Origin: a virus
Taxonomy: Duplodnaviria; Heunggongvirae; Uroviricota; Caudoviricetes
Virus record (IMG/VR): IMGVR_UViG_3300031998_000037
Strand: one strand, 5' to 3'
DNA length: 64,000 nt
This document shows, piece by piece, positions 1,908 through 16,045 of the stretch. Position numbers and translations under genes: made by a program. Positions within the stretch are counted from its first letter, which is position 1. Each line of letters starts with the position of its first letter. The notes beneath the pieces are model-generated. The model searched no databases, was not told the origin of the DNA, and saw only the letters and a program-made list of their open reading frames with translations.

Positions 1908-1946
1908 TATATCCTCACAAATAATATGTAGTGGGATTTTTAAAAA

Positions 1947-1959
1947 GGAACTCAGTTCC
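1947..1959. promoter_or_regulatory. GGAACTCAGTTCC 13-bp palindromic intergenic motif (copy 1), followed by CCAAAAAAAAA and the RBS of the SPFH gene
   Basis: exact palindrome seen; recurs at 16058, 16972, 20740, 20776, 20812 (AGAAC variant) and 54694. Confidence 0.6.
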
Positions 1960-1984
1960 AATTCCAAAAAAAAAGGAGAATACA

Positions 1985-2920
1985 ATGGGATTTTTTTACA
2001 ACACAGAAAAGGAAACAGTTCGTGCAGGTCGTATTGTCGGCACAGTAATAGCAGGTGTTGCAGCATTTCTATTACTTACAGGTTCAATCACAAGAGTTCC
2101 CGTAGGCTCAGTAGGCGTACAGACTAACATGGCTAAGGTTACAGGTAACACATATAGTTCTGGTTGGTATTTCAAGATACCGTTTGCCGAGCACATGATA
2201 GATATGTCGATTCAGCAGCAGTCAATTGAATATCCTTCTATTCAGGGCGAACTCTCAGGCAAAGAGCTTATTAACATGACGCTTAAACTTACATATTCCC
2301 TTAATGGTGATAAGGCAGCAAGTGTTTATGAAAACTATGGTGAGAACTATATAACCACACTCATGCCGCAAGAAGAAGTGTTTGATGTTGTAAAGGGTAT
2401 TGTAGCAACATATGACATAGAAGATATCAGAACAAACCGTGCCGCTATAATGCAGCAAGCCGCTGACGGTTTACGCGAAAGATTTGGTTCAAGAGGTATC
2501 ACTATCACTTCACTGGCACTTGCAAATTATGATTTTGGTGATCTTGAAGCCTCTATTGATGCTGAGGTCAAGGCAAAGCAAGAACGCAAAACAGTTGCGG
2601 AACAGAATGAACTTGCAATTGAGGTAGCTGAAAACGCAAAGAAAGTCGCTGAAATTGAAGCTGAAAAAGCAGCGGAGGTCAAGCGTACACAAGCACAGGC
2701 TGATGCGGACGCGGCTAAAATCAAAGCCGAGGGTGAAGCTAATGCCATTAAGATAAGGGGAGAAGCTGAGGCTGAGGCAAATGAAAAGCTTGCAGCGTCT
2801 TTAACCCCTGAACTTATAAAGGCTAAAGAAATTGAACAATGGAACGGATCAAAGGCAACTGTAATTCTTGGTGAAAGCACACAACCTATAGTTCCTATTC
2901 CCGAAACAACACAAGAATAA
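1985..2920 (+). CDS. SPFH/band-7 (HflK/C, prohibitin-like) domain membrane protein
   Basis: N-terminal TM helix, SPFH-like core, then Ala/Glu/Lys-rich coiled coil; start moved to the ATG at 1985 after AGGAG, because the track start at 1931 would run through the palindromic motif. Confidence 0.6.
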   Translation: MGFFYNTEKETVRAGRIVGTVIAGVAAFLLLTGSITRVPVGSVGVQTNMAKVTGNTYSSGWYFKIPFAEHMIDMSIQQQSIEYPSIQGELSGKELINMTLKLTYSLNGDKAASVYENYGENYITTLMPQEEVFDVVKGIVATYDIEDIRTNRAAIMQQAADGLRERFGSRGITITSLALANYDFGDLEASIDAEVKAKQERKTVAEQNELAIEVAENAKKVAEIEAEKAAEVKRTQAQADADAAKIKAEGEANAIKIRGEAEAEANEKLAASLTPELIKAKEIEQWNGSKATVILGESTQPIVPIPETTQE

Positions 2921-3895: not shown

Positions 3896-4318
3896 ATGAA
3901 AGTTTATAGAGTTGAAAACCCAAGTGAAGAACATGGACTTTGGCGCAACTTTGACGGTTCTCCATGTGATGTTTTTGAAAAACTTAAAGTTGGCAAATGT
4001 CGTGAAATGCCGATGCCCGATAATGATTTTTATAGGCGAGAGGGAAAGCGTTGGTTTTCCGCAACTGATGCTCCTGAAAAATTAAAGGCATGGTTTGATG
4101 TCTTTGACGTTATACAACTTTGTGAATTAGGGTATAAGGTTTATGAATTTGAGGTTGAATATGCTAAACCTGTAAATGAGTTTGAAGTTGTTTTCACGCG
4201 AGATTTAATTACTTCGTCAACTGCCATTGAACCATCTACTATTTGGAATGATTATGATACGGCAAAAAAATTTTTGACTTGTTGTTGCTGTGACTGTGAG
4301 GATTGTTATGCAAATTAA
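3896..4318 (+). CDS. hypothetical protein (C-terminal Cys cluster CCCCDCEDC)
   Basis: ORF; start placed at the ATG after AGGAG. Confidence 0.35.
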   Translation: MKVYRVENPSEEHGLWRNFDGSPCDVFEKLKVGKCREMPMPDNDFYRREGKRWFSATDAPEKLKAWFDVFDVIQLCELGYKVYEFEVEYAKPVNEFEVVFTRDLITSSTAIEPSTIWNDYDTAKKFLTCCCCDCEDCYAN

Positions 4319-5453
4319 TTGTGATAATGCTGCACAAAAGCCTTTAACCGAATCAGTAAAGCGAACCATAGTTAACTTTATTGATAATGAATTTGGCAAT
4401 CCTTCATCTATATATTCTAAAGGGCGCAACGCTAAACGTGCTCTTGAAGAAGCAAGAAGTCAGATTGCAGAATCAATAGGGGCTGACACAGACGAAATTT
4501 ATTTTACAAGTGGTAGCACCGAGGCAATCAACTGGCTTTATCATTCAACCAACAAACATATTCTGATTTCACCTATAGAGCACAAAGCTATTCTAAAAGG
4601 GAATGAAAATTATGATGGTATCTCTTACGGTTTGGACGTTAAACAAAATGGCGTTATAGATATTGAAAAACTTAAATATCTTTGTAATTGGGTACATGAC
4701 GATGGGGTTGCTATCATAGGTTGGGTAAATAATGAGATCGGTACAATTCAGCCTATAAAAGAAATAGCTAATATTTGCCACGCAAAAGGCGTTGAACTAT
4801 TCGTTGATGCTTCACAAGCTATCGGGCATATACCAATTAATGTGCATGAAATCGGGATGGATTATATGTGCGGTTCATTTCAGAAAATAGGCGGTTTGGC
4901 TGGTAGCGGTTTCCTTTATATAAAAAAAGGCAAAGGGTTCAATCCTATGTTATCTGGCGGATCACAAGAACGCGGCATGAGAGCTGGGACTGAAAACCTT
5001 TTAGGGGTAATGTGTGGTGCAACCGCGATATCCGAAGCAACTAAAAATCTAAGTGATAAAGTCTCCAGACAAAAAGAAATTCAAAGCAAAATTATCTCTG
5101 AACTTCTGAAACTCCCCAAAACACATTTGAATGGCGACTTATGTAATAGAGTTGCAAGCAATGTGAATATATGCTTTGAGGGTATTGAGGCTGAAAGTCT
5201 TGTGCTTCTGCTTGATTTAGATAATATTTGTGTTAGCAGTGGCTCTGCCTGTAACTCAGGTGATGTTAAGCCCAGCCATGTTTTGAAGGCGATAGGTCTT
5301 AGTGATGATAATGCTAAAGCAAGTATACGTATCACCTTTGATGACATGACGGATGATGAAATTGATTATCTTGTAGAGCGAATAAAGGCAAGAGTTAGTC
5401 AGTTAAGAGATATGTCCCCTAAATGGAAGGAGATATTCAATGCAAGTAATTGA
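4308..5453 (+). CDS. cysteine desulfurase (IscS/NifS family, class V aminotransferase)
   Basis: aligns along its whole length with IscS as recalled from memory: 'FTSGSTEAINW', 'NNEIGTIQPI', PLP lysine in 'SFQKIGG', 'SGGSQERGMRAGTEN', catalytic Cys in 'SSGSACNSGDVKPSHVLKAIGL', 'SIRITFDD..EIDYLVERI'. Confidence 0.8.
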   Translation: MQINCDNAAQKPLTESVKRTIVNFIDNEFGNPSSIYSKGRNAKRALEEARSQIAESIGADTDEIYFTSGSTEAINWLYHSTNKHILISPIEHKAILKGNENYDGISYGLDVKQNGVIDIEKLKYLCNWVHDDGVAIIGWVNNEIGTIQPIKEIANICHAKGVELFVDASQAIGHIPINVHEIGMDYMCGSFQKIGGLAGSGFLYIKKGKGFNPMLSGGSQERGMRAGTENLLGVMCGATAISEATKNLSDKVSRQKEIQSKIISELLKLPKTHLNGDLCNRVASNVNICFEGIEAESLVLLLDLDNICVSSGSACNSGDVKPSHVLKAIGLSDDNAKASIRITFDDMTDDEIDYLVERIKARVSQLRDMSPKWKEIFNASN

Positions 5454-5971: not shown

Positions 5972-6634
5972 ATGAAGAACTATTCTTCTAAAATCCGAAG
6001 TCTCCTCGCAAGAGGGACGAAAGCATTAGCATTAACATCTGTCTTACTCGCTACTGTAAGCTGCTCTCACGGTAAGACGGACACAGACACTTCCAGCAGC
6101 AGAAATGAGGTGACAACGACTTGTACAACTTCTACAACGACATCTACCTCTACAACATCAACAACGTCCTCTACGACAACAAGCACCGAGACAACGACGG
6201 CTGCGACGACGATGCCGACAACAACAATGATGACTGTGCAGGAGAATATTCAAGTGACTGAGTCTGTATATGTTGCTCCTGTTCAAGAGTATATTGAACC
6301 TGTGAACAGCAATCTTCCTATTACTGAGCGTGAAAGGGTTTTACTTTGTAATATTGTTGCAAATGAATATGGCTCAGACTGGGTAAGCGTCTATGACAAA
6401 GCTTGTGTTGTGGCAACTGTTATGAACCGTGTAAATAGCTCGCAATTCCCAAATGATATAGAAAGTGTCCTGACACAACCTCGTCAATTTACTGGCTATT
6501 GGGCAAGCGATAGTTATTATAGCACTGTTACAGACAGTTGCATAGAGGCAGTTGATTATTACTTTGCTCATCAAAATGAATTTGGTAATTACTTATATTT
6601 TGAAGGCGATGGGCGAGTGAATTATTTTCATTAA
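5972..6634 (+). CDS. secreted/lipoprotein cell-wall hydrolase (SleB/Hydrolase_2-like) with a Thr/Ser-rich linker
   Basis: signal peptide with a lipobox-like 'LATVSC', ~60-aa T/S low-complexity stretch, and C-terminal 'VVATVMNRVNSSQFPNDIESVLTQPRQFTGYW' that resembles the SleB family. Confidence 0.5.
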   Translation: MKNYSSKIRSLLARGTKALALTSVLLATVSCSHGKTDTDTSSSRNEVTTTCTTSTTTSTSTTSTTSSTTTSTETTTAATTMPTTTMMTVQENIQVTESVYVAPVQEYIEPVNSNLPITERERVLLCNIVANEYGSDWVSVYDKACVVATVMNRVNSSQFPNDIESVLTQPRQFTGYWASDSYYSTVTDSCIEAVDYYFAHQNEFGNYLYFEGDGRVNYFH

Positions 6635-6680: not shown

Positions 6681-6899
6681 ATGACAGCTAAACGAATGTA
6701 TTTATGGTCTGTGCATTACAGGGACGAAGTTGAACGCAGCATTGAATACTATAACTACATAAATTTGAAACAACCTGTATGGACAAGACCTTTAACAGAG
6801 ATAGAAAAGAAAGAGATTTTCGGTGGCAATCCGAATTACATAAAGAACATAGGCAGAAATGACGGACACGAATGGAGGCTATTGAATGATAATAATTGA
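6681..6899 (+). CDS. hypothetical small protein
   Basis: ORF. Confidence 0.3.
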   Translation: MTAKRMYLWSVHYRDEVERSIEYYNYINLKQPVWTRPLTEIEKKEIFGGNPNYIKNIGRNDGHEWRLLNDNN

Positions 6900-7560
6900 C
6901 AAAGCAGACGTATGCGGCTGGCAATCCGCTATTCGTGGCATGAGAAATCCTATGAATAGTTGGGATAAGTCTGACAGCCTTTATATGACGGTAAATGATA
7001 TTGTAGGGCATCCATGTGATGATGGCATGAAAGAAGAATTTGTTGTTGGCAATGATGACTTAAATTTAATGAAACGTCTTGTTAAAGCTGGCTCAGATCA
7101 CAGCAAGTTTATGCGAATGATAAATGTAACTTGCGATATTACAGCTCCTTTGTATTGGTGGAAGGAATTTGATACTTATAAGGTAGGCACTGTCAGAAAT
7201 AGCTGCTCGACCATGCATAAGATACACGCAAAACAATTTGAAATTGATGATTTTTCTTGTGATAAGCTTGACTCAAAATCATTAAAAGTTCTTCATTATA
7301 TTATTAACTATCTTAATGGCATGAGAGAATGGCACAACAATACTGAACCAAGTTTAAAAAAAGATGCATGGTGGCAAATGATACAACTCCTTCCGAGTTC
7401 CTATAATCAAAAGGCTACAGTTCAGATAAATTATGCTGTGCTTAGAAATATGTATCATAGTCGTCGTACACATAAGCTTGACGAATGGCATACATTTTGC
7501 AAATGGGTTGAAGATTTACCATACAGTGAATTAATTACAATGGAGGATAAGAATGGCTAA
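6886..7560 (+). CDS. divergent ThyX-fold (flavin-dependent thymidylate synthase-like) protein lacking the canonical RHR motif
   Basis: by-eye alignment to ThyX: 'LMKRLVKAGSDHSKFMRMINVTCDITAPLYWWKEF' versus 'L..L.KHGHETPFEH..FTF.V.APIFVARQWFRHR', and C-terminal 'LRNMYHSRRTHKLDEWHTF' versus 'NLRADSHAQWEI'; the RHR position reads DTY/TYK. Confidence 0.4.
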   Translation: MIIIDKADVCGWQSAIRGMRNPMNSWDKSDSLYMTVNDIVGHPCDDGMKEEFVVGNDDLNLMKRLVKAGSDHSKFMRMINVTCDITAPLYWWKEFDTYKVGTVRNSCSTMHKIHAKQFEIDDFSCDKLDSKSLKVLHYIINYLNGMREWHNNTEPSLKKDAWWQMIQLLPSSYNQKATVQINYAVLRNMYHSRRTHKLDEWHTFCKWVEDLPYSELITMEDKNG

Positions 7561-8104
7561 ACCACTAATAGCAATACTTGGTGTTTCAGGCAGCGGCAAG
7601 ACCTCTCTCGTAAATAAGATTAGTAAGAAATATGGGCGCACTGTTTTGAAGTCTTATACAACACGTAAGCCGCGAGAGGGTGACGATACCGATTTAACAT
7701 CGCATGAGTTTATTACAATGCAAGAAGCTGCATTTATTGCAGAAAACGATAAGATTATAGCAAGCAATTGGTTTGATGGTAACTTTTATTTTGCCACTAA
7801 GAGTCAGCTTGATAAGGCAGACCTGTATGTGGTAGATGTTGCAGGATTAAAAGCTCTGTATCGTAACTATTTTGAGCGTCCAATTTTAAGTGTACTTCTT
7901 AGCGTTGACAGTTCTATTGTTGCTGAAAGAATGGCAAAGCGCGGCGATACAAACGAAGCCATTTTTAAACGCTTGCAGCACGACAGCGAAGCCTTTAAAG
8001 ACGCAACAGATTATGTTGATTTTGTATGCACTAACTTTAATCAAGATCAGTGCAATGACAATGTGGAGTTTATAGAGTTTTTATTTCGCAATTATAAGGG
8101 GTAA
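7553..8104 (+). CDS. P-loop nucleoside/deoxynucleoside monophosphate kinase-like protein
   Basis: Walker A 'GVSGSGKTS'; size 183 aa; sits among nucleotide-metabolism genes. Confidence 0.5.
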   Translation: MAKPLIAILGVSGSGKTSLVNKISKKYGRTVLKSYTTRKPREGDDTDLTSHEFITMQEAAFIAENDKIIASNWFDGNFYFATKSQLDKADLYVVDVAGLKALYRNYFERPILSVLLSVDSSIVAERMAKRGDTNEAIFKRLQHDSEAFKDATDYVDFVCTNFNQDQCNDNVEFIEFLFRNYKG

Positions 8105-8107
8105 GAG

Positions 8108-8311
8108 ATGGTAATAGGTTATTTTGACGGCTCATATGAGAGTTTTAATTTGGTACATCAATTAGATGATAGAGAGATACCCTATGAAGCCAAGAACCAG
8201 CAAGACGCACATGAGTTTGGCTTTTATGATTTGCCAATGCTGGTTGTCGGCAATAAGGTTTTGAATTATAAGAGAGCCTTGAAATGGTTAAAGAAACAAA
8301 AGGGGGATTGA
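8108..8311 (+). CDS. hypothetical small protein
   Basis: ORF. Confidence 0.3.
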   Translation: MVIGYFDGSYESFNLVHQLDDREIPYEAKNQQDAHEFGFYDLPMLVVGNKVLNYKRALKWLKKQKGD

Positions 8312-8312
8312 C

Positions 8313-8513
8313 ATGGTTACATTATATACAATAGACTGCCCTAAATGTAAAATTCTTGAAAAAAAACTTAACAATGCAAATATAAACTATCTTATAGTTA
8401 AGGACAGGGATGAAATAAAAGCAAAGGGTATGGACTTAATGCCAGTCTTAGAGGTCGATGATATTAGAATGAATTTTAAGCAAGCTTGCGATTGGGTTAA
8501 CGAGAGGAGCTAA
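8313..8513 (+). CDS. glutaredoxin-like protein (NrdH-like redoxin)
   Basis: 66 aa; CPKC active-site motif near the N-terminus; immediately upstream of nrdD. Confidence 0.55.
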   Translation: MVTLYTIDCPKCKILEKKLNNANINYLIVKDRDEIKAKGMDLMPVLEVDDIRMNFKQACDWVNERS

Positions 8514-8517
8514 GACT

Positions 8518-10479
8518 ATGGCAAAAAAACAAACATCTACTATAAACGTTGGTATTACTTTAGATAAAGATTTTATTACCCAATACAATAAACTTCAAGC
8601 TGAGTACGGCACAGACATAGCAAGACTTAATGGCTTCGGTGACGATCAGCTTTCATATACAGATTTTATTGATAATTTTATTGATGATGATACAATTGCA
8701 GACGTAAGTATTGACGGCAATAGTAATGTCAGAAGAAAAGATATCGTGACACTGATAACAGAAATGCCAAAACCACACAGAAAGCTTCTTGCCTATAATA
8801 AGATTTACTATGAGTTCAAGAAAAAGTATGGCTTTAAGGCAGCAAATACGTGGCTTGAATATGAATGGTCTGGCAAGCTTTATCTCCATGACGCTGACAC
8901 TTCTTCTATGAAGCCTTACTGTTTTGCCTATGACCTTAAAGACCTTGCTGAAAGAGGGTTGTATTTCTTAGGCATAAACAATACTCAGCCAGCACAGCAC
9001 CTTACTACATTTGTTGATTTTGTAAAGGAGTTTATCTCTTTTGCAAGCAACAGAAGTAGCGGTGCGGTAGGCTTACCAAATATAATCCCGTATATGTTCT
9101 ATTATTGGCGCAAAGATGTCAAGTCTGATTATCTCGGAGTAAGAACAAGCGGCAATGAAAAGAAGTATGCTATTCAGAATTTCCAGAGATTTATCTACGC
9201 TGTCAATCAGCCGTGTGTACGTGATGGTCAGCAGTCAGCCTTTACCAATACAACTGTCTTTGATCGTCCTTACTTTGAAGCTCTTTTCGGCGGAACTGAG
9301 TTTCCTGACGGATCGTTTATGATTGATGCCGAAGAAGAAATAATTGAGTTTCAGAAATGGTATATGGAGACAATGGCTGAAATACGCAGCGAGAATATGT
9401 TTACATTCCCCGTATCAACTATTTCTCTTATTCGCAAGAACGGTAAGTTTGAGGATGAGGAATTTGCACATTGGGCAATTCGCCACAATATGAAGTGGTG
9501 CGATAGCAATATGTTTATTGACAAGGACGTAACTTCACTGTCAAATTGTTGTCGCCTTAAATCTCAGATTGATAACCTCGGCTACTTTAACAGTATCGGT
9601 GGAACAGCTTTAAAGGTTGGTTCAGTCAAAGTTGGCACAATCAATCTGGCTCGTATTGCACTTGATACTGAAAATGAAACTGAGTATCTTACAGAACTTA
9701 AAAAGCGTACCCTTATTGACTTAAAGGTACTTGATATAATCAGAGGCATTATAAAGAGAAATGTTGACAAGGGGCTTCTGCCTAACTTTACTTATGGGCT
9801 AATTGACTTTAAACATTTATATAATACAGTGGGCTTTACTGGTGTATATGAGAGCATGAAAAAGTTTGGCTATATCTCACGCGACTTATTCAATAATGTT
9901 TCCTATACAGAACAAGCCGAAAAGTTTGGTAAGAAGATATTCGATACCATACGCAAGACCGCCGATAAGTTCCTTGAAGATAACACTTGCGATTATCTTG
10001 TTTCACTTGAACAATCACCTGTAGAACAAGCGGCAAGCAAACTGATTCGTAAGGACAAGTTCTTCTATCCTGAGTCTGACATCTACGATTTGCCCGTATA
10101 TGGTAATCAGTTTATGCCACTCGGCATCAAGTCAATCTTACAAGAGAGAATAAGGGTTCAGGCTTTATTTGATGGTTTCTGTTCTGGCGGCAGCATACTT
10201 CATGCCAACATTGAAACGCCTTTTGACAGTTATGAAAAGGCATTGGCAATGACAGAGTATGTCGCAGATCAGGGGGTAACATACTTTGCATGGAACACAA
10301 AGATTTCTGCCTGTGAACATAATCACGCATTTCATGGCAAGATTTGCCCAAAGTGTGGTAAGCCTGTAAAAACAGAGTATACCCGTGTAGTCGGTTTTTA
10401 TACGCCGATTGAAAGCTGGTCAAGTGACCGTAAGGCGGAATATAAATTAAGACAATGGGAGGTAGTGAATGAAACTTAA
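8518..10479 (+). CDS. nrdD: anaerobic ribonucleoside-triphosphate reductase (class III RNR)
   Basis: 653 aa; C-terminal Zn-ribbon 'CPKCGKP' followed by the glycyl-radical motif 'TRVVGFYTP'. Confidence 0.75.
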   Translation: MAKKQTSTINVGITLDKDFITQYNKLQAEYGTDIARLNGFGDDQLSYTDFIDNFIDDDTIADVSIDGNSNVRRKDIVTLITEMPKPHRKLLAYNKIYYEFKKKYGFKAANTWLEYEWSGKLYLHDADTSSMKPYCFAYDLKDLAERGLYFLGINNTQPAQHLTTFVDFVKEFISFASNRSSGAVGLPNIIPYMFYYWRKDVKSDYLGVRTSGNEKKYAIQNFQRFIYAVNQPCVRDGQQSAFTNTTVFDRPYFEALFGGTEFPDGSFMIDAEEEIIEFQKWYMETMAEIRSENMFTFPVSTISLIRKNGKFEDEEFAHWAIRHNMKWCDSNMFIDKDVTSLSNCCRLKSQIDNLGYFNSIGGTALKVGSVKVGTINLARIALDTENETEYLTELKKRTLIDLKVLDIIRGIIKRNVDKGLLPNFTYGLIDFKHLYNTVGFTGVYESMKKFGYISRDLFNNVSYTEQAEKFGKKIFDTIRKTADKFLEDNTCDYLVSLEQSPVEQAASKLIRKDKFFYPESDIYDLPVYGNQFMPLGIKSILQERIRVQALFDGFCSGGSILHANIETPFDSYEKALAMTEYVADQGVTYFAWNTKISACEHNHAFHGKICPKCGKPVKTEYTRVVGFYTPIESWSSDRKAEYKLRQWEVVNET

Positions 10480-10942
10480 AGGTTTGATTGACGAGGATTT
10501 TGTGAATTATAAAAAGCCCTCTATGTTTATATCAACCTATACTTGTTCATTCAAATGTTGCGAGGAATGTGGTCAAGCGGTATGCCAAAACTTACCGCTT
10601 GTATCACAGCCTACAATTGAGGTTGATAATGCAGATTTGGCTGTGCGCTACCTTAATAATGATATAACCCATGCTGTTGTTATCGGCGGACTTGAACCAT
10701 TTGACGACTTTGCAGATTTAAACCGTTTTGTCACTTGTTTTCGTTCTTTCTGCAATGACGATATAGTGATCTATACTGGCTACAATGAAGATGAAATAAA
10801 GCATTATGTTGATAAGCTTAGATGGGTTCACAACCTTTACATTAAATATGGCAGATATATCCCTAATCAGCAGCCGCATTATGATGCCGCCCTCGGTGTT
10901 AAGCTTGCAAGCGACAACCAGAAAGGAGTTAAGGTATGCTGA
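10469..10942 (+). CDS. nrdG: anaerobic RNR activating protein (radical SAM)
   Basis: 157 aa directly downstream of nrdD, overlapping it; Cys cluster 'CSFKCCEEC' and 'GGLEP' motif. Confidence 0.6.
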   Translation: MKLKGLIDEDFVNYKKPSMFISTYTCSFKCCEECGQAVCQNLPLVSQPTIEVDNADLAVRYLNNDITHAVVIGGLEPFDDFADLNRFVTCFRSFCNDDIVIYTGYNEDEIKHYVDKLRWVHNLYIKYGRYIPNQQPHYDAALGVKLASDNQKGVKVC

Positions 10943-11133
10943 GAATAATAAAGAACCCCGATGAAGAAATGTTCAAAGAAGTTCTGACAGCAGTTAAGGC
11001 TAACGATTTATACTGTCCGTGCCGTTTGGAGCGCACACCAGATACTAAATGTCCGTGCAAAGAGTTTCGCGATCAGCGAACAGAAGGGGAGTGCAACTGC
11101 GGGCTTTATGTAAAGGTGCAAGAAGATGATTGA
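10936..11133 (+). CDS. small Cys-rich protein
   Basis: CPC...CPC...CNC. Confidence 0.3.
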   Translation: MLRIIKNPDEEMFKEVLTAVKANDLYCPCRLERTPDTKCPCKEFRDQRTEGECNCGLYVKVQEDD

Positions 11134-12517: not shown

Positions 12518-13044
12518 TTGAGCTTTTCAGAGTCGATAAAGACAAGCTTAGGAGGAGATGAATATTATACTCCTTCTAATGCGGTAGAAATGATTTTACC
12601 TGTGCTGCGCAAGCATAATTTTTCAAAAGTCTGGTGTCCATTTGATACTGCCGAAAGTAATTTTGTTGTAAAACTCAGCAAAGAATTTGAAGTAGTATAC
12701 GGTCATATTTATACTGGACAAGATTTCTTTGAATATGATACCCCCCCGAAGGTGTGGAATGTGTAGTAAGCAATCCGCCATTTAGTAAAAGAAATGATAT
12801 ATTTAAGAGGCTGTTTGAATGGGATATACCTTTTGCTCTTATTATGAATATGAACGGCATCTTTGATAGCAAAGAAAGATATGATTTGTTTAAAGATAAA
12901 CAGGTTGAGTTCTTTATACCAAAGGGTAGAATGAAATTCTTTACGCCTGATGGTGTTACAAAAAACTCGCCTAATTTTCAGAGTATTTATATTTGCAGTA
13001 AATTATTAGATAAACAACTTGAATTTTCTGAAAGTGAATTTTAA
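12518..13044 (+). CDS. phage Dam-family N6-adenine DNA methyltransferase, interrupted at a C7 tract (12741-12747); C8 would restore the frame
   Basis: N-part 'EYYTPSNAVE...YDTPP' (frame 2) and C-part 'ECVVSNPPFSKRNDIF' (frame 1) meet only across the poly-C. Confidence 0.65.
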
Positions 13045-13769
13045 AGGAGATGTAATGAGTAATATACAACTTTTTCAAGGGGACTGCTTGGAACTTATGA
13101 AAGATATACCAGACAAAAGTGTGGATTTAATTTTGACAGATTTACCTTACGGAACAACAGCTTGTAAGTGGGACAGCATAATTCCATTTGATTTACTATG
13201 GGGGGGGGTACGACCGTATCATAAAAGACGATGGTTGCATTGCTTTGTTTGGTAGCGAACCATTTTCTACGATGTTAAGATATAGCAATCTGAAGCATTT
13301 TAAATATGATTGGATATGGGAGAAAGAACAGGGTGCTAATTTTATGCTTTGTAAATATCAGCCCTATAAAGTACATGAAGTCATTTCTATCTTTGGCAAT
13401 AAGAAGATGCGTTATTATCCGCAAATGACCGCTGGCAAACCTTATATATCAGGCAAGGGTACAAGTGGTGATATTACAAACAATGTACCAAAGATACAGA
13501 CAGTTAATTCGGGTACAAGATATCCGCGAAGCATTCAAAAATTTAACACTCAAAAAAATCACTCGGTTCATCCAACTCAGAAGCCAGTGCCACTACTTGA
13601 ATACCTTATTAAGACCTATACAATTGAGGGTGACACAGTATTAGATAGTTGCATGGGCAGTGGCAGCACGGGCGTAGCTGCCGTCAATACAAATCGCAAC
13701 TTTATTGGCATGGAACTTGATGAGAAATATTTTCAGATTGCACAAACCAGAATTAAGGAGGCAACATAA
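13019..13769 (+). CDS. beta-class N6A/N4C DNA methyltransferase, interrupted at a G9 tract (13200-13208); G8 would restore the frame
   Basis: 'LILTDLPYG' motif IV first, then 'HPTQKP', then 'CMGSGSTG' motif I at the C-terminus. N-part 'FDLLWGG' is in frame 2 and C-part 'GGGYDRIIKDDG' in frame 0. Confidence 0.7.
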
Positions 13770-14011
13770 TGAAAGACTATTTCGGGCATAAGATAAATAT
13801 AGGCGACATTGTTCTATACAACGAACGCGGCTCAAAAGGATATCGCTCTTCCTTTAGTGAAGGAACTGTGATTGAATTTGTTGGCAAAACAAAAGTAAAA
13901 ATTAAAAACGATTCAAGCTTTTGGGCAGCAACTAAATATCCAGAAAACACAGTTGATCTTACAGCTCTTGATATAAGACAAAAGGTAACACTTAATGAAG
14001 ATAGCGTTTGA
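13769..14011 (+). CDS. hypothetical protein
   Basis: ORF. Confidence 0.3.
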   Translation: MKDYFGHKINIGDIVLYNERGSKGYRSSFSEGTVIEFVGKTKVKIKNDSSFWAATKYPENTVDLTALDIRQKVTLNEDSV

Positions 14012-14570
14012 TTTAGATAGTGTTTGCGTAAATACAGTTGACGCGATTATAGAGTACATAAATGAGCGAGTGCCTGTAAATCTGAAAGTTGATGATATCA
14101 CTTCCTACAATATTGAATCAGCTTTACCAGAGCAATTTCAATGGATTGTAGACGCAGGTTTCCGTGACTCAAAAATGTGGAAGAAAGTAAAACTGTTGCC
14201 GCGATGTGCCGAAATCATGGAGAAGCTTTACAAAGAGGGCTATGAGATTTGGTTTGCCACATCATCGCTGCCTGAGAATATGCGCAAGAAGATAAAACAC
14301 TTGGCTCGTAATATGCAATTCTTTCCTGAGCATTATGTGTGGCAGCACACTATCAATATTCAGGACAAGTATTTGCTTAATGTTGATGTGCTTGTAGACG
14401 ATTGCCTGAAACACGCAATTCACCCTGATAGATTGTATTGGTCTATTATCATGGACTACCCGTGGAATAGATTATCTGAGCCTGTAGAACGCACAGTACG
14501 AGCATATGATTGGGATTGGATATATGAAAAGATACATATGATAGACAACATACTAAAGGAGGATAAGTAA
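13995..14570 (+). CDS. HAD-family 5'(3')-deoxyribonucleotidase-like (NT5C-type)
   Basis: N-terminal 'IAFDLDSVC' (DxD nucleophile motif) and a later 'LVDDC'. Confidence 0.45.
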   Translation: MKIAFDLDSVCVNTVDAIIEYINERVPVNLKVDDITSYNIESALPEQFQWIVDAGFRDSKMWKKVKLLPRCAEIMEKLYKEGYEIWFATSSLPENMRKKIKHLARNMQFFPEHYVWQHTINIQDKYLLNVDVLVDDCLKHAIHPDRLYWSIIMDYPWNRLSEPVERTVRAYDWDWIYEKIHMIDNILKEDK

Positions 14571-15550: not shown

Positions 15551-16045
15551 ATGAATAAGTTTGAGAAAGTAAGTTACGATCAGTTTGAAAAGGATTTAAG
15601 TGGCGACGCTTGGGTTGAGCCTATAATAAACATTATGTATGAGCAAATCAAATTGCCACAGAGAGCCACAAAGTTCTCTGCTGGCTATGATATATACGCT
15701 CCATATGATTTAGTAATACCGCCTAAAGGCACGGTCAAAGTTCCTACAGGTATTAGGGTTCAGCTTGATGATGATAAGTTCCTCGCTGTTTATCCGCGTT
15801 CAGGATTAGGCTTTAAGTTTAAGATGCAGTTATATAATAGTGTCGGCATTATTGACAGCGACTATTACAATTCAGATAATGAGGGGCATATCTGGTGTAA
15901 GTTCTATAATGACAGTCCTGACGGTAAGACGATTACTATTAAGCAAGGCGAAGCAATGTGTCAAGGTATTATTCAGCAATATTTTAAGATAAATGGTGAT
16001 GAGACAGACGGTGTACGCAATGGGGGCTTTGGCAGCACAACGTAA
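15551..16045 (+). CDS. dut: dUTP diphosphatase (trimeric dUTPase)
   Basis: motifs 'ATKFSAGYDIYA', 'YPRSGLG', 'GIIDSDY', 'RNGGFGST'. Confidence 0.85.
   Translation: MNKFEKVSYDQFEKDLSGDAWVEPIINIMYEQIKLPQRATKFSAGYDIYAPYDLVIPPKGTVKVPTGIRVQLDDDKFLAVYPRSGLGFKFKMQLYNSVGIIDSDYYNSDNEGHIWCKFYNDSPDGKTITIKQGEAMCQGIIQQYFKINGDETDGVRNGGFGSTT

What the first reader, a model, noticed from the sequence alone, without database searches (positions are those of the whole stretch)
6886..8104. Divergent ThyX-fold protein lacking the RHR motif, adjacent to an NMP kinase: possible non-canonical nucleotide biosynthesis
The 224-aa ORF tracks the ThyX fold by eye, but the dUMP-phosphate-binding RHR reads DTY/TYK and the Ser/Arg motif is altered. 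It sits next to a P-loop NMP kinase and within a cluster with nrdDG, dut, an NT5C-type nucleotidase and five MTases. Phages that hypermodify pyrimidines use diverged thymidylate-synthase homologs plus a dedicated kinase. This could be such a pathway or an inactive paralog.
Basis: inference. Interest (0 to 1): 0.6.

Follow-up and report, generated by a model that had tools for sequence, protein, structure and literature searches.

The report
RHR-less ThyX-fold phage enzyme family
This phage gene encodes a very divergent relative of the flavin-dependent thymidylate synthase ThyX that has lost ThyX's signature motif; it belongs to a large unstudied family of gut-phage proteins and sits where related phages carry a normal ThyX, so it most likely supplies thymidylate in an unorthodox way.

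Summary

Three independent alignments place T97-Y98-K99 on ThyX R78-H79-R80 and S108-T-M110-H111 on S88-G-R90-Y91. The H53, N85, S88, R174 and H178 equivalents are kept.

The protein belongs to PHROG 6721, annotated 'unknown function'. The family has about 3,900 clusters at 50% identity and occurs in at least 594 species genomes, mostly gut and rumen Clostridia.

The 'dedicated kinase' idea fails. A homologue of the guanylate-kinase-like neighbour lies near only 4-7 of 167 family loci. The same kinase family sits next to canonical ThyX in related phages.

Among 80 loci anchored on close NrdD homologues, 35 carry exactly one ThyX-lineage gene: 17 canonical, 7 a short type, 11 this family. None carries two. 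The closest relative has a Pfam-positive short ThyX in the identical slot.

Best reading (about 0.45): a retooled ThyX-lineage enzyme filling the thymidylate-synthase slot. A non-canonical pyrimidine product remains possible (about 0.2). No experiment exists.

The parts
6886..7560 (+). 224-aa ThyX-fold protein lacking the RHR motif; member of PHROG 6721 (annotated 'unknown function')
6875..6879 (+). GGAGG ribosome-binding site 6 nt upstream of the ATG at 6886
   Evidence: Read directly from the sequence.
7099..7101 (+). H72, the probable equivalent of ThyX H53
   Evidence: MAFFT A4 aligns it with the His of canonical ThyX 'GH'. It is His in 127 of 150 family members. hhalign places a 2-residue indel here, so the equivalence is probable rather than certain.
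7174..7182 (+). T97-Y98-K99, at the position of the ThyX signature R78-H79-R80
   Evidence: hhalign and MAFFT with canonical phage ThyX. In the family: T 141/150, Y 146/150, K 129/150. Distant members read R-Y-H or R-Y-R.
7198..7218 (+). N105-S-C-S108-T-M110-H111 loop, equivalent to ThyX N85-E-L-S88-G-R90-Y91. Asn and Ser are kept; Arg becomes Met and Tyr becomes His.
   Evidence: S106, S108, M110 and H111 are each conserved in at least 147 of 150 members. C107 is not conserved (C/T/Q/E).
7462..7485 (+). R193-R-T-H196-K-L-D-E200, equivalent to ThyX R174...H178...E182, all retained
   Evidence: R193 is conserved in 149/150 members and H196 in 150/150.
7553..8104 (+). 183-aa guanylate-kinase-like P-loop NMP kinase. 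Its start overlaps the upstream stop by 8 nt, with its own GGAGG at 7542-7546.
   Evidence: phrog_1815 E 6e-37. PF00625 scores 25.5 bits against a cutoff of 25.2. TIGR03263 scores 56 bits against a cutoff of 160. All best PDB hits are guanylate kinases, E 7e-8. Sequence read.
6681..6899 (+). 72-aa upstream ORF of unknown function that overlaps the start of the ThyX-fold gene. It is conserved in the closest relative, L168.
   Evidence: tblastn gives 57% identity at L168:7169-7336.
8108..8513 (+). Two small glutaredoxin/thioredoxin-like ORFs (8108-8311 and 8313-8513) between the kinase and nrdD
   Evidence: phrog_22 thioredoxin domain, E 3.6e-6, for the second ORF. The second ORF is conserved upstream of NrdD in nearly all related loci.
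8518..10479 (+). NrdD, anaerobic ribonucleoside-triphosphate reductase
   Evidence: PF13597 E 2.3e-85.
10469..10942 (+). NrdG-like activase
   Evidence: PF13353 Fer4_12 E 2.9e-5. Its homologue cluster matches Fer4_12 and Radical_SAM.
13995..14570 (+). NT5C-type 5'(3')-deoxyribonucleotidase
   Evidence: PF06941 E 5.9e-14. In relatives it lies between canonical ThyX and NrdD.
15551..16045 (+). dUTPase, a source of dUMP
   Evidence: PF00692 E 1.6e-17 and phrog_135 E 6.7e-43. In L211 the dUTPase lies directly upstream of the family gene.

Best explanation
Shown. The 224-aa protein is a very divergent member of the ThyX (flavin-dependent thymidylate synthase) lineage. It represents a large, unannotated phage family, PHROG 6721.

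Shown. It occupies the thymidylate-synthase slot of the phage's deoxynucleotide-supply operon. The order is ORF72, this gene, GK-like kinase, two glutaredoxin-like genes, NrdD, NrdG, with NT5C and dUTPase further downstream.

Shown. Closely related phages carry one of three mutually exclusive ThyX-lineage genes near NrdD, often in that same upstream slot: a canonical RHR-bearing ThyX, a short Pfam-positive ThyX, or this family.

Inferred. It still binds a uracil-type pyrimidine nucleotide in the ThyX inter-subunit pocket, using the retained equivalents of R174 (R193), S88 (S108), N85 (N105), H178 (H196) and H53 (H72). It carries out a C5 one-carbon transfer, most probably dUMP to dTMP with dUMP supplied by the dUTPase. 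The kinase then phosphorylates the product.

Inferred. The contacts to the cofactor and substrate phosphates are rewired. R78, R80, R90, R147 and R165 are lost, while new invariant K74 and R77 appear where ThyX has T55 and E58. Cofactor binding or kinetics may therefore differ from canonical ThyX.
For: Fold.
- Weak sequence link: 17 of 150 diverse members hit PF02511 at E<=1, the best at 4.5e-5.

Pocket under selection.
- 20 of 23 positions equivalent to ThyX ligand contacts are conserved in at least 80% of members, against 77 of 224 positions overall (Fisher p = 6e-8).

Slot and exclusivity.
- In 80 NrdD-anchored loci, 17 carry a canonical ThyX, 7 a short ThyX and 11 this family. None carries two classes. 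Under independent placement that has p = 0.003.
- No canonical or short ThyX was found within 6 kb of the family gene in any of 167 family-anchored loci.
- The 64-kb window has no ThyA or ThyX by tblastn.

Synteny.
- L179 and L174 have a canonical ThyX (PF02511 7.5e-43) directly followed by the GK-like kinase, then grx, NrdD, NrdG and dut.
- L168, the closest relative (NrdD 90% and kinase 71% identical), has a short ThyX (PF02511 5e-10) plus an HNH-like gene between ORF72 and the kinase.
- In L198 the family gene is followed directly by the kinase, and in L211 a dUTPase sits directly upstream of it.

Other context.
- Some members are interrupted in frame by HNH/NUMOD4 homing endonucleases. From my own knowledge, such elements are known from the T4 td and nrd genes.
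- The genome paper on the cultured phage PMBT24, which carries the family, lists a dUTPase and an anaerobic RNR but no thymidylate synthase.
- General context is replication and nucleotide metabolism: NrdD, NrdG, MazG, dUTPase, primase, helicase, polymerase.
Against: - The residues the literature describes as binding the FAD phosphates and ribityl (the RHR motif, plus Arg165 in H. pylori numbering) are missing. So are the conserved substrate-loop and lid residues Arg90 and Tyr91 (T. maritima numbering); Ser88 and Tyr91 are reported as critical for activity.
- Pfam's ThyX model does not recognise the window protein at all, and hhalign against a ThyX profile is not significant (E 0.13-0.18).
- Positional replacement and mutual exclusion with thymidylate synthase would equally be expected of a TS-derived enzyme that makes a modified pyrimidine.
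- The loci compared are related to one another and some are truncated, so the exclusivity p-values are optimistic.
- There are no biochemical data for any member.
Confidence: 0.45

Rival explanations
1. The retooled ThyX-fold enzyme converts a pyrimidine deoxynucleotide (dUMP or dCMP) into a non-canonical C5-modified nucleotide. A phage or host kinase then phosphorylates it and it is built into phage DNA.
For: - The active-site loop is changed but strongly conserved: R90->M, Y91->H, E86->S, RHR->TYK. That is what one expects of new chemistry rather than decay.
- Enzymes that control the nucleotide pool are frequent neighbours: MazG 16/83 loci, dUTPase 14/83, DUF3310 15/83, NT5C 6/83.
- One member is fused to DUF1599, 'nucleotide modification associated domain 1'.
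- Precedent exists for ThyA-fold thymidylate synthase homologues that make 5-hydroxy-dCMP.
- Mutual exclusion with canonical ThyX is also expected under this model.
Against: - No partner gene is conserved; the most frequent neighbour is present in about 20% of loci.
- The kinase is not specific to this family.
- The family occurs in a 38.6-kb C. perfringens phage, a 42.6-kb T7-like phage and many contigs from bacterial assemblies.
- The closest relative, L168, keeps a nearly identical kinase and NrdD but has a Pfam-positive ThyX in the slot. A change of DNA chemistry between such close relatives is less parsimonious than a swap of enzymes with the same function.
- The window encodes five DNA methyltransferases. 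That suggests protection by ordinary methylation of canonical bases.
- R174, which my own knowledge assigns to the uracil O4 contact, is retained.
Confidence: 0.2
2. The protein is non-catalytic. It keeps the ThyX scaffold and pocket only to bind a nucleotide or flavin-like ligand. It could act as a regulator or sensor of the dNTP pool, a sponge for a signalling nucleotide, or an inhibitor of a host enzyme.
For: - Most of the residues described as needed for ThyX catalysis or cofactor binding are lost.
- The gene is stand-alone with variable neighbours.
Against: - Conservation is very strong exactly at the pocket positions, including polar His, Ser, Arg, Lys and Glu (H196 150/150, R193 149/150).
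- It sits in the same operon slot as real ThyX and is mutually exclusive with it.
- It lies in replication and nucleotide-metabolism modules rather than early anti-defence regions.
Confidence: 0.12
3. It is an enzyme on a different substrate class. Because the monophosphate-binding arginines are lost, it may act on a nucleoside, a nucleoside triphosphate, or a uracil within DNA or RNA (a polymer-level C5 modification).
For: - R147->I166, R78->T97, R90->M110 and R165->E/A remove the positive charges that hold the phosphates in ThyX. New basic residues (K74, R77, K99, K93, K197) lie elsewhere.
- It is often next to polymerase, primase, helicase and recombination genes.
Against: - No DNA- or RNA-binding domain or fusion recurs; the C-terminal extensions are unrelated singletons.
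- Its exchange with canonical ThyX in the same slot beside dut, a kinase and NrdD points to the mononucleotide pool.
Confidence: 0.1

Closest known systems
Flavin-dependent thymidylate synthase ThyX (Thy1, PF02511; e.g. T. maritima TM0449, H. pylori ThyX)
   Same: - Same length class, about 220 aa.
- Collinear motifs, with H53, N85, S88, P151, R174, H178 and E182 equivalents retained.
- Same genomic slot as canonical ThyX in related phages.
   Different: - No Pfam hit for the window protein.
- RHR is replaced by T-Y-K, R90-Y91 by M-H, E86 by S, R147 by I and R165 by A/E. T55 and E58 are replaced by invariant K and R.
- Sequence identity is only 11-19%.
PolB, the UMP/dUMP C5-methylase of polyoxin biosynthesis. 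It is the only neofunctionalised ThyX paralogue I found described.
   Same: - It is an example of a ThyX paralogue recruited to a new substrate.
   Different: PolB is annotated 'Thymidylate synthase ThyX' in its PDB entry and methylates both dUMP and UMP. From my own knowledge it keeps the RHR motif. The window protein has lost the motif and belongs to a phage family with no link to antibiotic clusters.
Short (~175-210 aa) ThyX-type proteins of related gut phages (e.g. L168:7563-8090)
   Same: They occupy exactly the same slot between ORF72 and the GK-like kinase in the closest relative. They are also divergent in the signature, reading R-H-V ... S-Q-R-N.
   Different: - The short type scores above Pfam's ThyX threshold (39.8 bits against 24.8).
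- It keeps R78, H79 and R90 equivalents.
- It lacks the central helical insert that the window protein has.
ThyA-fold thymidylate synthase homologues of phages that make modified pyrimidines (dCMP/dUMP hydroxymethylases, 5-hydroxy-dCMP synthase)
   Same: This is only an analogy: a diverged thymidylate synthase homologue in a phage nucleotide-metabolism cluster.
   Different: The fold is unrelated (ThyA, PF00303). No ThyA-like gene is present in the window. ThyA-like genes lie near the family in only 2 of 167 loci.

Membership tests
ThyX / flavin-dependent thymidylate synthase (PF02511, EC 2.1.1.148) | ThyX three-dimensional fold | tested here: met
   [not shown]
ThyX / flavin-dependent thymidylate synthase (PF02511, EC 2.1.1.148) | Scores above the curated Pfam Thy1 threshold (24.8 bits) | tested here: not met
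   No hit at E<=1 for the window protein. 17 of 150 diverse family members hit at E<=1, the best at 4.5e-5. hhalign against a ThyX profile gives E 0.13-0.18.
ThyX / flavin-dependent thymidylate synthase (PF02511, EC 2.1.1.148) | Signature motif R-H-R, which binds the FAD phosphates and ribityl, the isoalloxazine and dUMP (review) | tested here: not met
   T97-Y98-K99 aligns with R78-H79-R80 in hhalign and in MAFFT. The family consensus is T-Y-K, and rare distant members read R-Y-H or R-Y-R.
ThyX / flavin-dependent thymidylate synthase (PF02511, EC 2.1.1.148) | Substrate loop S88-x-R90-Y91; Ser88 and Tyr91 are reported critical and Arg90 conserved | tested here: not met
   The Ser is retained (S108, 147/150). 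Arg becomes M110 (148/150) and Tyr becomes H111 (147/150).
ThyX / flavin-dependent thymidylate synthase (PF02511, EC 2.1.1.148) | C-terminal R174 (a dUMP contact) and H178 | tested here: met
   R193 is conserved in 149/150 and H196 in 150/150 members. Both align with R174 and H178.
ThyX / flavin-dependent thymidylate synthase (PF02511, EC 2.1.1.148) | Further ligand-binding arginines R147 and R165. The R165 contact is taken from the review; the R147 contact is from my own knowledge. | tested here: not met
   R147 aligns with I166 or a gap. R165 aligns with A184, which is Glu in 114 of 150 members.
ThyX / flavin-dependent thymidylate synthase (PF02511, EC 2.1.1.148) | Bound FAD, homotetramer, and dUMP -> dTMP activity with CH2H4folate and NADPH | not testable with these tools
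   This needs purified protein (UV-vis, activity assay, thyA complementation) or a multimer-plus-ligand structure prediction.
ThyX / flavin-dependent thymidylate synthase (PF02511, EC 2.1.1.148) | Genomic role: a single thymidylate-synthase gene within the phage nucleotide-metabolism module | tested here: met
   Same slot as canonical ThyX in L179 and L174 and as the short ThyX in L168. None of 80 NrdD-anchored loci carries two ThyX-lineage classes.
PHROG 6721 (phage protein family, unknown function) | Full-length match to the family profile | tested here: met
   E 5.8e-74; residues 1-219 match profile positions 7-216 of 218.
Guanylate kinase (PF00625 / TIGR03263), for the neighbouring ORF 7553-8104 | P-loop plus the S-x-T-T-R-x-P-R NMP-binding motif, and a score above the curated thresholds | tested here: inconclusive
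   - The P-loop GVSGSGKT and the SYTTRKPR motif are present.
- PF00625 scores 25.5 bits against a cutoff of 25.2.
- TIGR03263 scores 56 bits against 160, so it is not an equivalog.
- All best PDB hits are guanylate kinases.
- In that pairwise alignment the yeast GK 'IEW' Glu aligns with Ala. From memory, this Glu is the guanine-binding residue, so base specificity is uncertain.

The most novel reading that the evidence does not exclude
The RHR-less ThyX-fold family is a synthase for a non-canonical C5-modified pyrimidine nucleotide. Thousands of phages of gut and rumen Clostridia, and of Fusobacterium and Desulfovibrio, would then carry an unrecognised DNA base made by a single stand-alone enzyme.

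A close second novel reading is that it is a true thymidylate synthase that works without the ThyX RHR motif, which would make it a mechanistically distinct class of flavin-dependent thymidylate synthase.
Probability: 0.2. Interest if true: 0.85.

Novelty: new variant of a known kind. Interest (0 to 1): 0.6.

Why it matters
ThyX is defined by its RHR(X7)S signature, and its mechanism has been worked out around those residues.

Here a very large family keeps the fold but replaces most of the cofactor- and substrate-binding arginines. It has about 3,900 clusters at 50% identity and occurs in at least 594 bacterial species assemblies. It is annotated only as 'hypothetical'. It sits exactly where phages keep their thymidylate synthase.

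If it makes dTMP, it shows an alternative way to build a flavin-dependent thymidylate synthase active site. That is relevant to ThyX enzymology, to inhibitor design, and to annotating thousands of gut-phage genomes that currently seem to lack a thymidylate synthase.

If it makes something else, it points to a widespread unknown DNA precursor in phages of the gut microbiome.

Either outcome can be tested directly, because cultured carriers exist: Enterocloster phages PMBT24 and CB457P1, Clostridium phage phiCTP1 and Fusobacterium phage Fnu1.

Tried and rejected
- Sequence-only identification failed. Pfam, NCBIfam, and PDB phmmer and profile searches gave nothing. hhalign against a Thermotogae-type ThyX profile was not significant, although the alignment itself was sensible.
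- A catalytic cysteine was rejected. C107 is invariant among close relatives, but it is C, T, Q or E in diverse members.
- A conserved partner gene was rejected. Unbiased clustering of neighbours in 83 and then 167 loci found no partner in more than about 20% of loci.
- A conserved domain fusion was rejected. C-terminal extensions are unrelated singletons, probably read-through or merged gene calls. The internal inserts are HNH/NUMOD4 homing endonucleases.
- A kinase dedicated to this protein was rejected.
- A canonical ThyA or ThyX elsewhere in the window was not found. The remaining roughly 36 kb of the parent contig could not be examined.
- Literature searches found no description of this family and no DNA-modification data. 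I searched for ThyX-like, ThyX paralog or homolog, Nmad1/DUF1599, and the carrier phages.
- The afdb50 fold library was unavailable.
Full report
**What is in the window.** ORF 6886-7560 (+) encodes 224 aa. It starts at an ATG six bases after a GGAGG. Its stop overlaps by 8 nt the start of ORF 7553-8104 (+, 183 aa), which has its own GGAGG. Both lie in a tightly packed same-strand block:
- a cysteine-desulfurase-like gene (4290-5453)
- a cell-wall hydrolase (5972-6634)
- ORF72 (6681-6899)
- the 224-aa gene and the kinase
- two glutaredoxin-like genes (8108-8513)
- NrdD (8518-10479, PF13597 2e-85) and NrdG (10469-10942)
- several DNA methyltransferases
- an NT5C nucleotidase (13995-14570) and a dUTPase (15551-16045)

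**Checking the observation.** By sequence the 224-aa protein matches nothing curated. There is no Pfam family at E<=1, no NCBIfam model, and no PDB chain at E<=10, either as a single sequence or as a 60-sequence profile. It does match PHROG 6721, annotated 'unknown function', at 5.8e-74.

**Residue mapping.** Two hhalign runs are not statistically significant (E 0.13-0.18), but they give a collinear alignment of up to 142 columns. A MAFFT alignment with canonical ThyX proteins from related phages and with T. maritima ThyX agrees with them.
- Changed: R78-H79-R80 -> T97-Y98-K99; N85-E86-L-S88-G-R90-Y91 -> N105-S106-C-S108-T-M110-H111; R147 -> I166 or a gap; R165 -> A184, which is Glu in most members.
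- Retained: P151 = P170, N163 = N182, R174 = R193, H178 = H196, E182 = E200, and probably H53 = H72.

According to a review, the RHR motif H-bonds the AMP phosphate, the ribityl and the FMN phosphate of FAD. Its first Arg also contacts the isoalloxazine and dUMP. The residue corresponding to R165 also binds FAD. R174, S88 and R90 bind dUMP, and Y91 forms a lid. S88 and Y91 are reported as critical for activity.

**Weak sequence-level link.** When 150 diverse members were scanned one by one, 17 hit PF02511 at E<=1, the best at 4.5e-5. The family is thus a remote branch of the ThyX lineage rather than a convergent fold.

**Size and spread of the family.** An exhaustive phmmer scan of 50%-identity representatives found 3,944 clusters at E<=1e-3 and 902 at E<=1e-30.

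In GenBank phages the family occurs in 27 records, annotated 'hypothetical' wherever the record is annotated. The hosts are Enterocloster, Clostridium, Clostridioides, Fusobacterium and Desulfovibrio. These records include a 38.6-kb C. perfringens phage and a 42.6-kb T7-like phage.

In one-genome-per-species bacterial assemblies at least 594 carry it, almost all of them gut or rumen Clostridia. I found no paper describing the family.

**Is it a decayed paralogue?** No. Across 150 diverse members, 20 of the 23 positions equivalent to ThyX ligand contacts are conserved at 80% or more, against 77 of 224 positions overall (Fisher p = 6e-8). Nine of the 20 positions conserved at 95% or more are such positions.
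- The replacements themselves are fixed: M110 148/150, H111 147/150, S106 147/150, Y98 146/150.
- New invariant basic residues (K74, R77) sit where ThyX has the FAD-contacting T55 and E58. That contact assignment is from my own knowledge.
- The cysteine that looked invariant among close relatives (C107) is not conserved more widely, so a ThyA-like Cys nucleophile is not supported.

The pocket is under selection but has been retooled.

**Is the kinase a dedicated partner?** No.
- The neighbour is a guanylate-kinase-like P-loop kinase: phrog_1815 at 6e-37, all PDB hits guanylate kinases, and far below the NCBIfam equivalog cutoff.
- Among 167 loci anchored on the 224-aa family, a homologue lies within 6 kb in 4 by tblastn and in 7 by phmmer.
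- Unbiased clustering of neighbours shows no partner at all in more than about 20% of loci.
- The commonest neighbours are NrdD, a helicase, a primase-helicase, NrdG, DNA polymerase, MazG, DUF3310, dUTPase and C5-methyltransferases.

The gene is stand-alone within replication and nucleotide-metabolism modules.

**The most informative test.** I anchored on close homologues of the window's NrdD (64-90% identity; 80 IMG/VR loci with up to 10 kb of flank). Thirty-five of the 80 loci carry exactly one ThyX-lineage gene: 17 canonical, 7 a short type of roughly 175-210 aa, and 11 the 224-aa family. None carries two classes. Under independent placement that outcome has probability 0.003, and 0.014 for this family against the other two classes combined. 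The loci are related to one another and some are truncated, so these values are optimistic.

The GK-like kinase is present in 40 of the 80 loci, regardless of class: with canonical ThyX 9/17, with the short type 6/7, with this family 5/11, with none 20/45.

Gene order makes the point directly.
- L179 and L174 read: canonical ThyX (PF02511 7.5e-43, with RHR and S-T-R-Y), GK-like kinase (PF00625 2e-20), a deoxyribosyltransferase-like gene, grx, NrdD, NrdG, dut.
- L168, the closest relative (NrdD 90% and kinase 71% identical), reads: cysteine desulfurase, ORF143, hydrolase, ORF72, a 75-aa ORF, a 175-aa short ThyX (PF02511 5e-10; motif R-H-V...S-Q-R-N), an HNH-like gene, kinase, grx, grx, NrdD.
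- The window has the same order, with the 224-aa family between ORF72 and the kinase.
- In L198 the family gene is again followed directly by the kinase. In L211 a dUTPase lies directly upstream of it.

**Interpretation.** These points are shown:
- the ThyX fold
- a remote ThyX relationship
- loss of the signature residues
- strong selection on the retooled pocket
- a stand-alone distribution
- interchangeability with canonical ThyX in one operon slot
- no specific tie to the kinase

The following is inferred. The protein does the job of that slot: a C5 one-carbon transfer on a uracil nucleotide, most probably dUMP to dTMP. The dUMP would come from the phage dUTPase, and the kinase would take the product onward.

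Several observations fit this.
- R174 is retained.
- The window has no ThyA or ThyX.
- The PMBT24 genome description lists a dUTPase and an anaerobic RNR but no thymidylate synthase.
- Some members are invaded by homing endonucleases.
- A swap of enzymes with the same function, next to an HNH gene in L168, is more parsimonious than a change of DNA chemistry between phages whose other nucleotide enzymes are 70-90% identical.

I put this explanation at about 0.45.

**What weighs against it.** Nearly every arginine thought necessary to hold FAD and dUMP is gone. If the protein is a thymidylate synthase, it is an unorthodox one.

**Rivals.**
I put this at about 0.2. The lack of any conserved partner, the non-specific kinase, the presence in small phages and prophage-like contigs, and the five DNA methyltransferases in this window all lower it.
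- A non-catalytic ligand binder: about 0.12.
- An enzyme acting on a non-monophosphate or polymer substrate: about 0.1.

**Membership.** The protein belongs structurally and evolutionarily to the ThyX superfamily. It fails the family's defining sequence tests: the Pfam threshold, the RHR motif, R90-Y91, R147 and R165. It should therefore not be annotated as ThyX (EC 2.1.1.148). 'ThyX-fold protein, RHR-less family (PHROG 6721)' is the defensible label. Flavin binding, oligomeric state and activity cannot be tested with these tools.

**Verdict.** The finding is a new variant of a known kind: a large, uncharacterised, retooled branch of the ThyX lineage that sits in the thymidylate-synthase slot of anaerobe phages. 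It is moderately to highly interesting, and several cultured carrier phages make it directly testable.

Noticed in passing
window 12518-13769: Two DNA methyltransferase genes appear split into overlapping ORF pairs. 12518-12766 plus 12754-13044 is EcoRI-methylase-like and carries an NPPF motif. 13019-13255 (carrying DLPYG) plus 13188-13769 matches N6_N4_Mtase. The cause could be frameshifts, sequencing errors or programmed shifts.
   Followed up: partly
window 10936-11133, with 8108-8513: A 65-aa protein just after NrdG matches the catalytic beta chain of ferredoxin-thioredoxin reductase (PF02943, 4.5e-5, above its cutoff). Together with the two glutaredoxin-like ORFs upstream of NrdD, this suggests a phage-encoded redox relay for the anaerobic reductase.
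   Followed up: no
window 4290-5453; also L168:4785-5900, L235:12223-13272, L171:6585-7466: A class-V aminotransferase / cysteine-desulfurase-like gene (PF00266 2e-55, phrog_12787) recurs in the NrdD modules of related phages. Its role is unknown; Fe-S supply for NrdG or thiolation are possibilities.
   Followed up: no
L235, L224, L225, L232, L233, L236, L237, L242, L245 (NrdD region): In many related phages the NrdD match is split into two pieces, with a gap of about 0.9-1.2 kb between them. This suggests an intron, intein or homing-endonuclease insertion in nrdD.
   Followed up: no
family members P0171, P0182, P0240, P0254 and others; L168:7999-8940: Several family members carry an in-frame HNH_3/NUMOD4/HTH homing-endonuclease insert at about residues 125-139 of the ThyX-fold protein. 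The closest relative of the window has an HNH-like gene right after its short ThyX. This fits endonuclease-driven cassette exchange in this slot.
   Followed up: partly
L179:6785-8005: A phage contig encodes a 406-aa protein with WGR and PARP catalytic domains (PF00644, 1.2e-19) directly upstream of its ThyX.
   Followed up: no
window 7553-8104 versus L179:8768-9304: In the pairwise alignment with yeast guanylate kinase, the window kinase has Ala where the yeast 'IEW' Glu lies. From memory, that Glu binds guanine. The L168 orthologue reads 'VCS' in what looks by eye like the same stretch. The kinase next to canonical ThyX in L179 reads 'VET' there, apparently keeping a Glu. Base specificity may therefore differ among these GK-like kinases.
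   Followed up: partly
window 1931-2920; L086:2898-3788 (Desulfovibrio phage ProddE): An SPFH/Band-7 (prohibitin-like) protein lies a few kb upstream of the ThyX-fold gene, both in the window and in the unrelated T7-like phage ProddE. This may be coincidence.
   Followed up: no
L033:4180-5404 and L040: In two family-anchored loci a weakly scoring ThyA-family gene lies near the ThyX-fold gene. In L033 the ThyA-family gene matches PF00303 at 3e-24, is followed by a dUTPase / dCTP-deaminase-like gene, and lies just upstream of the ThyX-fold gene. These are the only co-occurrences with any thymidylate synthase homologue that I found.
   Followed up: partly
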